64,000 nucleotides of DNA from Escherichia coli. GTDB lineage: Bacteria > Pseudomonadota > Gammaproteobacteria > Enterobacterales > Enterobacteriaceae. Position 1 is the first letter of the stretch, and the number at the start of each line of letters is the position of its first letter. Location of the stretch: the NCBI RefSeq assembly GCF_050920415.1, contig NZ_CP169309.1. One strand, given 5' to 3'. Below are positions 25,887 through 29,861 of this stretch, piece after piece. A program made the position numbers and the translations under genes. The notes under the pieces were generated by a model. It had not been told where the DNA came from. It made no database searches and saw nothing but the letters and a program-made list of their open reading frames with translations.

Positions 25887-26623
25887 TATTGCGGTATCCG
25901 CTGCGTCAGAGTCTGAAGAATGTCAGCGTTAAGGGCATCAGGTGTCTCACTCCAGACGGAGTCCGCGAGGCCAACATAAATAATGCTGCCGGGCATCGGC
26001 TCTACGTGACGCTTGTTCCAGTAAGCCACCGGCGCTTTTTGCGTGCGTCCGTCCGGGTAAACCACCCACGCGTAGCTGCGATCCGCACCGCTGAGCAGGC
26101 TCTGGTCAGAGAGATAGCTCGCCACGTCGCGACCGGGAGTGAATGACTGCTTGCCTGGACGACTGATAAGCCCGAACAACGTGACCGTGGACGGCGGTGG
26201 TCCGACCCACAGCGTGTAGTTGCCCTGCAACGGCGGGTTACCGCGTTCGGCAACGCGCACGATATCAGAATCAAGATTGATTTTTTGTCTGCCCGTCACC
26301 TTCAACGCCTGAATTTGCTGGCGTAAGGCGTTAATGGCGGCAGCATCGTCGGCGCTGGAATCTGCAGCCAGTTCTGCCAGCCGTGTCAGCAACGCCTGCT
26401 GCTGACGCAATGCAGCCGCCGTTGCTAGCTCTTCGCTAATCACCGCTCCGGGCCACCAACTGTTTGCGAGCCGCGGTTGACCCACCAGATCAATTAAATG
26501 CTCTGCGCCTGTCAGCGTTTTGGCCTCATTGCTGCCATTGCTGAACACTTTGACGGTGCCTGCCGCAAAGACCGATGACGCTCCCACGCTCATAATCAAC
26601 GCAGCAATAGTTTGTTTAATCAT
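25886..26623 (-). CDS. yjbG: Periplasmic capsule-assembly protein YjbG, 245 aa
   Basis: Internal Met [22 protein letters not shown] signal peptide; stop overlaps the yjbH start (ATGA). Confidence 0.85.
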
Positions 26624-27258
26624 TGTTTTGCCGCCTTGATGAGAGTGGTTTTCACCGGGAAATAATCCGCGCCGAGATACTGTTCCGACTGGCGAATTTG
26701 CCCTTCGCTGTCGATCCAATAGCGGTTATGCCAGCGCGCCTGGTCGGTGGAGACTTCTTCGTCCAGCACACGAACCGGAGTTTCATCGCTACCGACTTTG
26801 ACGGTATCGGTGCCATCCCATTTGAAAACCGAGCGTGCGGTGGCGTAGCGCACCTGCTGGTACTCGGTCCAGCCCATCGTGCGCGTCCAGGTTGCGCCAT
26901 CAACAATTTGTGCGGGTTTTATCAGCGGGTCGGCGGCAAGGTTATTCACTTCAATCAGGTTATCGCCGCCAAGCAAAGTCTTCACCAGACGACCATGTTG
27001 TGTGACGAGAGTGGCCTGATCCTGAGTGACCCATTTTTGTTGTCCATCTTCAGCGAAGGCCAGCACCACAAACAACTGCGGCCCGCCATTAAGCTGCATG
27101 TACTGGCTGGCGTAGGGCATATTTTGAATATCATCGTCCGTCAGCTGTACGCCTGGCGTACCGAACAGACTGTCCCACAGTGAATTGCCCAGCTCTTTAG
27201 TCGTGGCTGAACAGGCCTGTAATAGCAGGCAGATAAGAATGAGTGCAGGTCGCTTCAC
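26620..27258 (-). CDS. yjbF: Lipoprotein YjbF, about 212 aa (probable GTG start)
   Basis: KRPALILICLLLQACSATTKE lipobox signal peptide; overlaps the yjbG start by 4 nt. Confidence 0.8.
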   Translation of the reverse strand: MKRPALILICLLLQACSATTKELGNSLWDSLFGTPGVQLTDDDIQNMPYASQYMQLNGGPQLFVVLAFAEDGQQKWVTQDQATLVTQHGRLVKTLLGGDNLIEVNNLAADPLIKPAQIVDGATWTRTMGWTEYQQVRYATARSVFKWDGTDTVKVGSDETPVRVLDEEVSTDQARWHNRYWIDSEGQIRQSEQYLGADYFPVKTTLIKAAKQ

Positions 27259-27372
27259 GACTCTTCTCCAGAGGGGCAGAATAACCACACCGGAGTGTGG
27301 TTATGGTTAATCCCCGTCATACTTCAAGCCACAGATGCGATGACTCAAATTATTTTGGGGATACATACTTTA

Positions 27373-27615
27373 TTACTGGGTACTGGTGGTCGTGGTTGTT
27401 GTGGTCCCGGTATTAGAACCATCACCGCCACCGGTTGCCGCGAGCGCGACACCCACCGCCGAGCTTACGGTGCTGACGCTGGTTGCGGAGGAGCTACCCG
27501 CCGAAACCGACGTTGCTGCAGACCCTGCCGCTTCGCCCACCTGTACAGGTGCAGCCCACGCAGAAGTCGCCGCAAGCGCAGATATGGCAAAAATGCCATA
27601 CAGAACTTTTTTCAT
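27373..27615 (-). CDS. yjbE: Small secreted Ala/Ser/Thr-rich protein YjbE, 80 aa
   Basis: [21 protein letters not shown] signal peptide then low-complexity A/S/T/G-rich sequence ending in a poly-Thr tract. Confidence 0.85.
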
Positions 27616-27918
27616 AACAATTTCCCTTCATTGAATGAATGGAGATTTACCCAAAAACATTTCGGGCGGGATCGAGTATACACAACTAAAGCATGCGAAT
27701 TACGGCGCGGAGAATTAGTGATGGGGTTTTAGGATAATTGGAATGAATATCAAATATAAGCTTCAGCTTATATATAAATAACACTAAAAATCATAAGCTT
27801 AAAATAAAAATAAAAGTAATTAATCTGCGTATTTTCCGAAATCAATCATGATTAAAAATCTATTTTAGGATTAACCTCACGGTATGATTTTCGTTAAATC
27901 ACAGACAAGGGGATTTAT

Positions 27919-27969: not shown

Positions 27970-29619
27970 TTAACCGCGCCACGCTTTATAGCGGTTAATC
28001 AGACCATTGGTCGAGCTATCGTGGCTGCTGATTTCTTTGTCATCTTTCAGCTCTGGCAGAATACGGTTCGCCAGCTGTTTACCCAGCTCCACGCCCCACT
28101 GGTCGAAGGTGAAGATGTTCAGGATCACGCCCTGAGTAAAGATTTTGTGCTCATACAGCGCAATCAACGCACCCAGGCTGAACGGAGTGATTTCGCGCAG
28201 CAGGATAGAGTTGGTTGGGCGGTTACCTTCGAACACTTTGAACGGTACCACGTAGTCAAGCGTTGCCGGATCTTTACCCTGATCGCGATATTCCTGCTCA
28301 ACCACTTCGCGGGATTTACCAAACGCCAGCGCTTCGGTCTGAGCGAAGAAGTTAGACAGCAGTTTCTGGTGATGATCAGAGAGCGGGTTATGGGTGATAG
28401 CCGGGGCGATGAAATCGCACGGCACCATCTTCGTACCCTGGTGGATCAGCTGGTAGAACGCGTGCTGACCGTTCGTGCCAGGTTCACCCCAGATAATCGG
28501 GCCAGTCTGGTAATCCACAACGTTACCGTTACGGTCTACATACTTACCGTTGGACTCCATATTGCCCTGCTGGAAGTACGCTGCGAAACGGTGCATATAC
28601 TGGTCGTACGGCAGAATCGCTTCAGTTTCCGCGCCAAAGAAATTGTTGTACCAGATGCCGATCAGCGCCAGCAGTACAGGCAGGTTTTTCTCTGCAGGTG
28701 TGGTGGAGAAATGCTTGTCCATCGCGTGTGCGCCGGAAAGCAGTTCAACGAAGTTATCAAAGCCGATGGAGAGAACAATCGACAAGCCAATCGCTGACCA
28801 TAAAGAGTAACGACCGCCGACCCAGTCCCAGAACTCGAACATGTTGGCGGTATCAATACCAAACTCACCAACGGCTTTGGCATTGGTTGAGAGCGCCGCA
28901 AAGTGTTTCGCAACGTGTTTCTCATCACCTGCCGCTTTCAGGAACCAGTCACGCGCGCTATGGGCGTTGGTCATGGTTTCCTGAGTGGTGAAGGTTTTAG
29001 ATGCTACCAGGAACAGCGTGGTTTCCGGGTTTACTTTTTTCAGCACTTCCGCGATGTGAGTTCCATCGACGTTAGAAACAAAGTGCATGTTCAGGTGATT
29101 TTTGTACGGACGCAGTGCTTCGGTCACCATGTACGGCCCGAGGTCAGAACCGCCGATCCCGATGTTCACTACGTCAGTGATTGCTTTGCCGGTATAGCCT
29201 TTCCACTCACCGGAAATAATCGCTTCCGAGAAGGTTTTCATCTTCTCCAGCACGGCGTTAACTTCCGGCATGACATCTTTGCCATCAACCAGAATCGGGG
29301 TATTGCTACGGTTACGCAACGCTACGTGCAGTACGGCGCGGTTTTCAGTGCGGTTGATCTTCTCGCCAGAGAACATCGACTTAATCGCACTCGCCAGATC
29401 GCACTCTTTCGCCAGATCCTGTAATTTCGCCAGCGTCTCTTCAGTGATGCGGTTTTTGGAGTAATCCACCAGCATCTGATCGTCGAAGGTTGCGGAGAAC
29501 TTAGAAAAACGATCGCCGTCTTTAGCAAAAAGATCGGCGATCGTAACGTCTTTCATTTCATCGAAGTGTTTCTGTAGTGCCTGCCAGGCCGCGGTCTGCG
29601 TTGGATTGATGTTTTTCAT
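27970..29619 (-). CDS. pgi: Glucose-6-phosphate isomerase Pgi, 549 aa
   Basis: [72 protein letters not shown]... is E. coli Pgi. Confidence 0.97.
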
Positions 29620-29861
29620 TAGCAATACTCTTCTGATTTTGAGAATTGTGACTTTGGAAGATTGTAGCGCCAGTCACAGAAAAATGTGATGGTTTTAGTG
29701 CCGTTAGCGTAATGTTGAGTGTAAACCCTTAGCGCGATGAAGCATTTATTAGTTGAACTACTGACCGCCAGGAGTGGATGAAAAATCCGCATGACCCCAT
29801 CGTTGACAACCGCCCCGCTCACCCTTTATTTATAAATGTACTACCTGCGCTAGCGCAGGCC

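What the first reader, a model, noticed from the sequence alone, without database searches (positions are those of the whole stretch)
27373..27432. Poly-threonine codon tract at the 3' end of yjbE
yjbE ends in eight consecutive Thr codons (ACC/ACG/ACA) within a low-complexity Ser/Thr/Ala/Gly-rich secreted protein. Such short codon repeats are candidate slippage sites and could vary in length between strains, altering this small exopolysaccharide-associated protein.
Basis: seen in the sequence. Interest (0 to 1): 0.2.

Follow-up and report, generated by a model that had tools for sequence, protein, structure and literature searches.

The report
Conserved seven-threonine tail of YjbE
The small E. 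coli envelope protein YjbE ends in a run of seven threonines that is kept at exactly seven in 80 related species, and about 2% of E. coli genomes carry in-frame copying-slip variants with 5, 9 or 12 threonines, so this is a minor polymorphism and not a genetic switch.

Summary
The tract is real, but it has 7 consecutive Thr codons, not 8 (window 27385..27405, minus strand; 9 Thr in the last 12 codons of yjbE, 27373..27615). Such a run is far beyond chance (shuffling P≈7e-5).

Tract length is not invariant:
- 7 Thr: 5,315 genomes (98.1%)
- 9 Thr: 85
- 5 Thr: 18
- 12 Thr: 1
- one probable 2-nt frameshift

No 6-, 8- or 10-Thr alleles were found. Every change is in-frame, 6 or 15 nt, and bounded by short direct repeats (`ACCAC`, `GACCACCA`). 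That fits replication misalignment. Flanking haplotypes show at least 9 independent events. Variants are concentrated in the allele family with a perfect (`ACCACA`)×2 repeat. The window's own allele is among the least repeat-like.

Constraint dominates. All 80 species-level orthologs (about 25 Enterobacteriaceae genera, yjbF downstream in each) have exactly 7 Thr, spelled 49 different ways in DNA. The C-terminal `[10 protein letters not shown]7-ST` block is the most conserved part of the protein.

Verdict: an ordinary, rare coding-repeat polymorphism in a length-constrained tail of unknown function. It is not a contingency locus. Interest is low.

The parts
27373..27615 (-). yjbE coding sequence (80 aa plus stop), first gene of the yjbEFGH operon
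   Evidence: ORF list; Pfam PF11106 YjbE E=5e-33, full length; RefSeq annotation of the matching locus in 5,420 E. coli genomes
27553..27615 (-). Predicted signal peptide (aa 1-21, [21 protein letters not shown], cleavage after AWA)
   Evidence: Read from the sequence. Kyte-Doolittle maximum 1.65. AlphaFold2 helix at 3-16, low confidence. The AAP motif after the hydrophobic core is conserved in the family. The cleavage site is inferred from the -3/-1 rule and was not tested.
27433..27486 (-). Gly/Ala/Val-rich hydrophobic segment (aa 44-61) just before the tail
   Evidence: AlphaFold2 helix 44-61 at low confidence (mean pLDDT 55). The 19-residue Kyte-Doolittle mean is 1.24 in E. coli and 1.9-2.1 in most distant family members. 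Whether it spans a membrane is unresolved.
27406..27432 (-). Conserved GGGDGSNTG motif (aa 62-70) leading into the Thr run
   Evidence: Nearly invariant in 70 distinct orthologs from 80 species. The C-terminal block has mean column conservation 0.978 and is also present in distant family representatives.
27385..27405 (-). Run of seven Thr codons (aa 71-77): ACC ACA ACA ACC ACG ACC ACC
   Evidence: Exactly 7 Thr in 5,315 of 5,420 E. coli genomes and in 80 of 80 species-level orthologs, with 49 different codon spellings.
27386..27405 (-). Short direct repeats (ACCAC at tract offsets 0, 9 and 15) that serve as misalignment substrates. In other alleles these form ACCACN hexamers (period 6) or two GACCACCA copies (period 15).
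   Evidence: Repeat-run analysis of the three parental alleles. Every observed indel equals the spacing between such repeats.
27373..27384 (-). C-terminal Ser-Thr-Gln and the TAA stop
   Evidence: S-T is conserved; the last residue is Q or R, with a few short extensions, in orthologs.
26620..27258 (-). yjbF (YjbF-family lipoprotein), the next gene of the operon; context only
   Evidence: RefSeq annotation of matching loci. A YjbF homolog lies downstream on the same strand in 80 of 80 orthologous loci.

Best explanation
The tract encodes a conserved, length-constrained seven-threonine C-terminal tail of the small Rcs-regulated envelope protein YjbE. Selection acts on the protein (exactly T7, preceded by GGGDGSNTG), not on the DNA, whose codon spelling drifts freely. 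In E. coli, the preference for ACC, with ACA or ACG interspersed, happens to create short direct repeats: ACCAC every 6 nt, and GACCACCA 15 nt apart. During replication these occasionally misalign (slipped-strand mispairing) and duplicate or delete 6 or 15 nt. The results are in-frame alleles with 5, 9 or 12 Thr. Such events recur, and they are commoner where a synonymous ACG-to-ACA change has made a perfect (ACCACA)x2 repeat. They stay rare and are never fixed between species, which indicates purifying selection on tail length. The site is not an on/off or tuning switch. Shown here: the tract, the allele census, the repeat-bounded nature and recurrence of the indels, and the cross-species invariance. 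Inferred: the slippage mechanism, purifying selection, and any function of the tail. The best lead for function is that the tail is a Ser/Thr acceptor or docking element for the polysaccharide export proteins, as speculated for GfcA in PMC8592465.
For: Census of 5,420 E. coli genomes, using 84-96-nt queries so that 99% identity or more means an exact match: 7 Thr in 5,315, 9 Thr in 85 (54 + 31), 5 Thr in 18 (14 + 4), 12 Thr in 1, and one 2-nt deletion. The identity-band counts agree across the queries and leave no room for 6-, 8- or 10-Thr alleles. Sequenced examples: 9A = ACC(ACCACA)x3ACCACC; 9B = ACC ACCACA ACCACA ACCACG ACCACC; three 5-Thr spellings derived from three different parental alleles; 12-Thr = a duplication of ACCACCACAACCACG between two GACCACCA repeats. 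Recurrence: 9B lies on three different flanking haplotypes that differ about 37 nt upstream and about 39 nt downstream of the tract. 5a lies on at least two haplotypes. With 5b, 5c, 9A and the 12-Thr allele this makes at least 9 events. Dependence on repeat quality: length variants make up 68 of 415 genomes (16%) of the perfect-repeat 7A family, against about 1% of the 7K family (3,617 parental genomes) and at most 0.3% of the window-type 7W family (891). Constraint: 80 of 80 species-level orthologs from about 25 genera have exactly 7 Thr with 49 DNA spellings, the C-terminal block is the most conserved region (0.978), and yjbF follows in all 80. T7 also occurs in 9 of the 15 aligned family members, including representatives only 45-60% identical to E. 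coli YjbE. Isolate series that appear related by name and accession share one allele.
Against: Slippage was not observed directly; it is inferred from the structure of the indels. Genome counts are inflated by clonal sampling, so the 16% versus 1% contrast is not a rate. More distant family members do show 3-, 4-, 5- and 8-Thr runs, some interrupted by Ser or Ala. The 9-Thr alleles persist in dozens of clinical isolates, so they are not strongly deleterious. No functional data exist for the tail.
Confidence: 0.8

Rival explanations
1. Contingency (hypermutable) locus: tract length changes frequently and adaptively, tuning or switching an exopolysaccharide-associated surface property between strains.
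For: Length does vary and has changed independently at least 9 times. Variants occur in apparently successful clinical lineages. Loss-of-function mutations in yjbEFGH are selected in experiments and give mucoidy (PMC8540638; PMC8117528), so the operon can be a target of selection.
Against: 98.1% of genomes keep 7 Thr. The repeats are imperfect and short: at most 17 nt of perfect period-6 repeat, and only in one allele family. All changes are in-frame, so there is no on/off switching. No single-codon steps occur. Isolate series that appear related share one allele. 80 of 80 species are fixed at 7.
Confidence: 0.05
2. Neutral low-complexity tail: the Thr run is a dispensable disordered linker whose length drifts freely, and the variants are simply neutral polymorphisms.
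For: AlphaFold2 predicts no structure for residues 62-80. The 5-, 9- and 12-Thr alleles are annotated as intact proteins and persist in many isolates. No phenotype is known.
Against: Free drift would give different fixed lengths in different species. Instead, 80 of 80 orthologs have exactly 7 although the codons have turned over (49 spellings), and this block is more conserved than the rest of the protein. The motif is retained even in stand-alone homologs that lack yjbFGH.
Confidence: 0.12
3. Artefact: the length variants are sequencing or assembly errors in a repetitive stretch.
For: One genome (FCI56) has a 2-nt deletion inside the tract and is flagged as frameshifted. That could be an assembly error.
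Against: The 5-, 9- and 12-Thr alleles differ by clean multiples of 3. The 5- and 9-Thr alleles recur exactly in 14, 31 and 54 independent assemblies from different laboratories. The variants have their own RefSeq protein accessions (WP_000757332.1, WP_021575443.1, WP_195706902.1).
Confidence: 0.02

Closest known systems
YjbE family (Pfam PF11106), first gene of the Rcs-regulated yjbEFGH exopolysaccharide operon of E. coli K-12 (Ferrieres et al. 2007, cited in PMC8592465 and PMC8117528)
   Same: It is this gene. The protein is identical to the common E. coli YjbE (WP_000757333.1), gives a full-length Pfam match, and has yjbF downstream.
   Different: Nothing differs at the protein level. The window's DNA allele of the tract (ACC ACA ACA...) is a minority spelling, exact in 891 of 5,420 genomes, and the 401-nt locus is 100% identical to only one other genome.
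GfcA (YmcD), the 'threonine-rich inner membrane protein' encoded by the first gene of the group 4 capsule operon gfcABCDE-etp-etk
   Same: It holds the same position in a paralogous operon (gfcBCD ~ yjbFGH; PMC8592465, PMC11494523). It has the same layout: a signal peptide, a Thr/Ala/Gly-rich stretch, a Gly/Ala/Val hydrophobic segment, and a tail ...DGGSHNTSTTTSTTR that resembles ...[19 protein letters not shown].
   Different: No significant sequence similarity was found: BLASTP gave no alignment, Pfam YjbE gave no hit, and hhalign aligned only the signal peptide. The Thr runs in GfcA lie mainly in the N-terminal half, and its tail has T3 rather than T7.
Coding variable-number tandem repeats (in-frame microsatellites) of bacterial genomes, such as those used for VNTR typing
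   Same: Copy number of a 6-nt unit varies between strains through in-frame gain or loss, recurrently and with homoplasy.
   Different: The array is very short and imperfect (about 3 units) and the polymorphism is low (1.9%). No paper in the searched library pairs yjbE with VNTR.
Phase-variable contingency loci (simple-sequence repeats in Neisseria, Haemophilus and Campylobacter surface genes)
   Same: The presumed mutational mechanism (slipped-strand mispairing at repeats) and the location in a surface-polysaccharide-related gene.
   Different: The changes do not shift the reading frame, there is no long perfect repeat, switching is not frequent, and the length is conserved across species.
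Extracytoplasmic Ser/Thr-rich disordered regions that are O-glycosylated in streptococcal membrane proteins (PMC12041528, title and abstract only)
   Same: A Ser/Thr-rich, apparently disordered segment of a small envelope-associated protein. Larson et al. raised glycan attachment for GfcA (PMC8592465).
   Different: No evidence of glycosylation exists for YjbE, the compartment of the tail is unknown, and the organism and machinery differ.

Membership tests
YjbE family (PF11106) | Match to the family profile above Pfam's gathering score over the whole protein | tested here: met
   113.6 bits against a cut-off of 27.9, E=5e-33, residues 1-79 on profile positions 1-79
YjbE family (PF11106) | Genomic context: first gene of yjbEFGH, downstream of pgi, followed by yjbF | tested here: met
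   A pgi-like ORF lies at 27970..29625 and yjbF at 26620..27258, both on the same strand. RefSeq annotations of matching loci agree. yjbF lies downstream in 80 of 80 orthologous loci.
Phase-variable contingency locus | Long perfect simple-sequence repeat (a homopolymer, or many copies of a 1-8-nt unit) | tested here: not met
   The window allele has only 5-nt repeats at periods 6, 9 and 15. The best allele (7A) has 17 nt of perfect period-6 repeat. Tandem Repeats Finder score is 30.
Phase-variable contingency locus | Length changes shift the reading frame or promoter spacing and so switch expression on and off | tested here: not met
   All population variants are +6, -6 or +15 nt and are annotated as intact proteins of 78, 82 or 85 aa. 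The single 2-nt deletion occurs in one genome.
Phase-variable contingency locus | High-frequency variation among closely related isolates | tested here: not met
   98.1% of genomes have the modal length. Isolate series with related names or accessions share one allele. Relatedness was judged from names only. No within-clone rate was measured.
Coding VNTR (in-frame microsatellite) | Tandem or near-tandem repeat unit whose copy number differs between strains | tested here: met
   ACCACN hexamer: 1, 2 or 3 copies of the ACCACA/ACCACG unit (5, 7 or 9 Thr), plus a 15-nt duplication
Coding VNTR (in-frame microsatellite) | Recurrent, independent changes (homoplasy) rather than one inherited event | tested here: met
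   9B lies on three flanking haplotypes and 5-Thr has three DNA spellings from three parental alleles, giving at least 9 events
GfcA/YjbE homology | Significant sequence or profile similarity beyond the signal peptide | tested here: not met
   BLASTP found no alignment, Pfam YjbE gave no hit on GfcA, and hhalign aligned residues 1-26 only. The similarity is one of architecture and operon position.
O-glycosylated Ser/Thr-rich disordered region | Glycan covalently attached to Ser or Thr residues of the tract, and the tract located in the compartment of the transferase | not testable with these tools
   Only a published speculation about GfcA (PMC8592465). Topology is unresolved: AlphaFold2 pLDDT 55; hydrophobic-segment Kyte-Doolittle mean 1.24 in E. 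coli against about 2.0 in relatives.

The most novel reading that the evidence does not exclude
The exactly-seven-threonine tail, with its GGGDGSNTG lead-in, is a length-critical functional element of a family of tiny envelope proteins. It might be the attachment or priming site for a polysaccharide (an O-linked glycan) or a strand that docks into the YjbFGH/GfcBCD-type export machinery. On this reading the natural 5-, 9- and 12-Thr E. coli alleles are a ready-made allelic series that alters exopolysaccharide output or Rcs signalling. The evidence does not exclude this. The tail is the most conserved part of the protein, its length is invariant in 80 species despite complete codon turnover, and it is retained in stand-alone homologs that lack yjbFGH.
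Probability: 0.15. Interest if true: 0.55.

Novelty: new member of a known kind. Interest (0 to 1): 0.22.

Why it matters
As a slippage site it matters little. It is a rare, in-frame, non-switching polymorphism in a core gene of unknown mechanism, and the window's own allele is among the least mutable versions. Its modest value lies elsewhere.

1. It is a clean natural example of how one synonymous change (ACG to ACA) creates a perfect hexamer repeat and raises the local load of length variants.
2. The strict conservation of exactly seven threonines across about 25 genera, against complete codon turnover, marks the tail of an uncharacterized protein as functionally constrained.
3. The existing 5-, 9- and 12-Thr strains give experimenters a simple handle on what YjbE, and perhaps GfcA, does in exopolysaccharide export.

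Tried and rejected
1. Exact-sequence look-up of ten YjbE length variants (tracts of 3 to 13 Thr) in the 15-billion-protein collection. None was found, not even the common 80-aa protein, so the collection does not hold this gene call and gave no allele frequencies.
2. The word-indexed protein search returned mostly fragments and frameshifted calls, presumably because of low complexity. It was of little use for tract comparison.
3. NCBIfam gave no family.
4. The lead that a 'yjbE insertion (+9 bp)' in a mucoid E. coli clone evolved under Myxococcus predation (PMC8540638) might be a tract expansion was rejected. The sister entry 'yjbH insertion (+8 bp)' is 'IS1 +8 bp' in the source table (PMC6754418 supplement). 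This is breseq notation for an IS1 insertion with a target-site duplication. The position of the yjbE event itself was not found.
5. GfcA as a sequence homolog: not supported.
6. Structure: AlphaFold2 on a 15-sequence alignment gave mean pLDDT 55, too low for a fold search, so none was run. There is no relative in the PDB (best E=0.31).
7. Phage origin of stand-alone homologs: tblastn of P0058 against 50,697 phage records found nothing.
A 6-member alignment worked but imposed a pattern requiring at least 6 Thr.
9. Literature: no paper in the library pairs yjbE with VNTR. Papers that pair yjbE with threonine only repeat the 'threonine-rich' annotation.

Full report
**1. What is at the coordinates**

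The finding (27373..27432) lies at the 3' end of an 80-codon ORF on the minus strand, 27373..27615. Its product is [80 protein letters not shown]. It matches Pfam PF11106 (YjbE) over its whole length (E=5e-33). It is identical to the common E. coli YjbE, WP_000757333.1. A pgi-like ORF lies upstream and yjbF downstream on the same strand.

Codon by codon, the tail reads T69 G70, then T71-T77 (ACC ACA ACA ACC ACG ACC ACC; window 27385..27405), then S78 T79 Q80 and TAA. There are therefore seven consecutive Thr codons, not eight, and nine Thr in the last twelve codons.

The run is not a by-product of composition. Only 7e-5 of one million shuffles of the protein give a Thr run of 7 or more (2.4e-4 for the mature part). 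It is the only homo-amino-acid run of 6 or more in any ORF of at least 60 aa in the window. As DNA, the window allele is a poor repeat: Tandem Repeats Finder gives score 30, period 9.

**2.

A 401-nt query found the locus in 5,420 of 5,426 complete E. coli genomes. Some match lengths differed from the query. Fetching those showed an 82-aa YjbE with nine Thr in strain 2023CK-01687. Its tract is ACC(ACCACA)x3ACCACC, where another allele has two ACCACA copies.

I then used queries of 84-96 nt (36 nt upstream, the tract, 33 nt downstream), so that 99% identity or more can only mean an exact match and a 6-nt indel falls in a separate identity band. The counts agree across six such searches:

| Tract | Genomes | Detail |
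|---|---|---|
| 7 Thr | 5,315 | 7K (K-12 spelling, ACC ACC ACA ACC ACG ACC ACC) exact in 3,617; 7W (window spelling) in 891; 7A (ACC ACC ACA ACC ACA ACC ACC) in 347; about 460 with other substitutions |
| 9 Thr | 85 | 54 '9A' + 31 '9B' |
| 5 Thr | 18 | 14 exact to the query + 4 with one substitution |
| 12 Thr | 1 | strain Res13-Lact-ER07-18, 85 aa |
| 2-nt deletion | 1 | strain FCI56, flagged frameshifted |

The 95-99% bands of the 5-Thr and 9-Thr searches are fully accounted for by listed or reciprocal alleles. Alleles with 6, 8 or 10 Thr are therefore absent, unless they carry two or more additional substitutions. Tract length is not invariant, but 98.1% of genomes keep seven.

**3. Nature of the changes**

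Every variant is explained by duplication or deletion of the DNA between two short direct repeats of a parental allele.
- **From 7A:** this allele has an 11-nt period-6 match, which is 17 nt of perfect ACCACA repeat. It gives 9A by adding one unit and 5a (ACC ACC ACA ACC ACC) by losing one.
- **From 7K:** this allele has only ACCAC repeats at period 6. It gives 9B (ACC ACCACA ACCACA ACCACG ACCACC) and 5c (ACC ACC ACG ACC ACC).
- **From 7W:** the window spelling gives 5b (ACC ACA ACA ACC ACC).
- **12 Thr:** this allele duplicates the 15 nt between two GACCACCA copies of 7K.

This is the signature of slipped-strand misalignment. The mechanism itself is inferred, not observed.

**4. Recurrence**

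I aligned about 670 nt around the gene from 21 loci.
- **9B** sits on three different flanking haplotypes: K-12-like, B2-like with a 72-nt insert in the spacer, and a third. They differ at sites about 37 nt upstream and about 39 nt downstream of the tract. Transfer of a single allele would need implausibly short recombination tracts.
- **5a** occurs on at least two haplotypes. 5b and 5c occur on two others.
- **9A and most 5a** share the haplotype family of 7A.

Together with the 12-Thr allele, this makes at least nine independent events. The 78-aa protein is found beside six different YjbF alleles.

Length variants make up 68 of 415 genomes (16%) in the 7A family. The figure is about 1% for 7K and at most 0.3% for 7W. 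That fits a dependence on repeat perfection, but these are genome counts affected by clonal sampling, not rates. Isolate series that look related by name and accession all share one allele, which argues against rapid switching.

**5. Constraint across species**

An exhaustive HMMER search of 1.84 billion cluster representatives found a small family of 29 hits. Full-length members only 45-60% identical to the E. coli protein mostly end in [18 protein letters not shown]71 and T75 are invariant in the family alignment. In three of these members the run is spelled with fully mixed codons.

A scan of one genome per species (GTDB) returned 80 loci from about 25 Enterobacteriaceae genera, including Citrobacter, Enterobacter, Kosakonia, Salmonella, Buttiauxella, Cedecea, Siccibacter, Trabulsiella and Lelliottia.
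- All 80 have exactly seven Thr.
- They represent 70 distinct proteins and 49 distinct DNA spellings of the run.
- The C-terminal block is the most conserved part of the protein (mean column conservation 0.978, against 0.81 for the signal region and 0.89 for the middle).
- yjbF follows on the same strand in all 80.

One caveat applies. It would, however, have found 6, 8, 9 or more, and it found none. Polymorphism within E. coli without any fixed difference between species is what purifying selection on length predicts.

**6. What the tail does**

This is unknown. According to the papers read here, yjbEFGH is Rcs-regulated and linked to production of an uncharacterized exopolysaccharide. Disrupting the operon gives colanic-acid-dependent mucoidy or resistance to sedimentation (PMC8117528; PMC8540638).

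GfcA is encoded by the first gene of the paralogous gfcABCD group. It has the same layout and a similar tail...DGGSHNTSTTTSTTR, but no significant sequence similarity beyond the signal peptide. [quoted passage not shown] That is a lead only.

Topology is unresolved. The segment before the tail is strongly hydrophobic in most relatives (Kyte-Doolittle mean about 2.0 over 19 residues) but weaker in E. coli (1.24). AlphaFold2 gives helices at 3-16 and 44-61 and an unstructured tail, at pLDDT 55. No solved relative exists.

**7. Comparison with known kinds, and novelty**

The gene and its 'threonine-rich' character are already annotated. Strain-to-strain variation in the tract length was not found in the searchable literature.

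The locus behaves as a very short, weakly polymorphic in-frame coding VNTR. It fails all three defining features of a contingency locus: a long perfect repeat, frame-shifting steps, and high-frequency variation.

I file it as a new member of a known kind, of low interest. The most notable by-product is that the tail is held at exactly seven threonines across genera.

Noticed in passing
window 27300..27700: This 401-nt stretch is 100% identical to only one of 5,426 complete E. coli genomes (strain MFDS1022581). All the others are at most about 98.3% identical, yet the encoded YjbE protein is the common one. The window strain therefore carries an unusual set of synonymous and intergenic substitutions here (haplotype table).
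   Followed up: partly
L005 ~628-700, L015, L020 (yjbE-yjbF spacer; corresponds to window ~27340): B2-like strains carry a 72-nt GC-rich insert with an internal inverted repeat (…GTGAGTCCCCGGGAGCATAGATAACTATGTGACCGGGGTGAACGAG…) in the yjbE-yjbF spacer. From memory it resembles the core of the ERIC/IRU intergenic repeat, but this was not tested. Strain EC-1639 (L009) has instead lost most of the spacer.
   Followed up: partly
L006 (NZ_CM169476.1), L002 (NZ_CP169013.1), L017 (NZ_CM172715.1): yjbE is occasionally inactivated in natural isolates. An IS1A insertion truncates the 5' end in strain EC25. Strain UTAK-22 has an early frameshift. Strain FCI56 has a 2-nt deletion inside the Thr tract. IS1 insertions in this operon are also reported from laboratory evolution (PMC8117528; PMC6754418 supplement).
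   Followed up: partly
L023 5001-5240, L024 5001-5252, L026 5001-5252: Distant PF11106 members (P0058, P0060, P0064) are stand-alone small genes with no YjbF, YjbG or YjbH homologs within 5 kb. P0058 lies beside phage-tail-like genes (FNIII-A_GpJ, a GDSL lipase) and a TolA-domain gene. P0058 and P0060 keep the GSNTG-T7-ST tail, and P0064 keeps a Ser/Thr-rich tail. This suggests the small protein can act without the yjbFGH partners. A tblastn search of phage records found nothing.
   Followed up: partly
L082 (CACSKA010000007.1): A contig labelled 'Chryseobacterium sp. 18061' carries an Enterobacteriaceae-type yjbE-yjbF pair (83% identity to E. coli YjbE). This probably reflects contamination or mislabelling of that assembly.
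   Followed up: no
E. coli genome search results: One of the 5,420 yjbE copies lies on a record classed as a plasmid, one genome has two places matching the locus, and six genomes have no match at all.
   Followed up: no
window 27386..27634 (+ strand): An 82-aa antisense ORF begins MVVVVVVP…. Its Val run is simply the reverse-complement reading of the Thr codons and is not evidence of a gene.
   Followed up: yes
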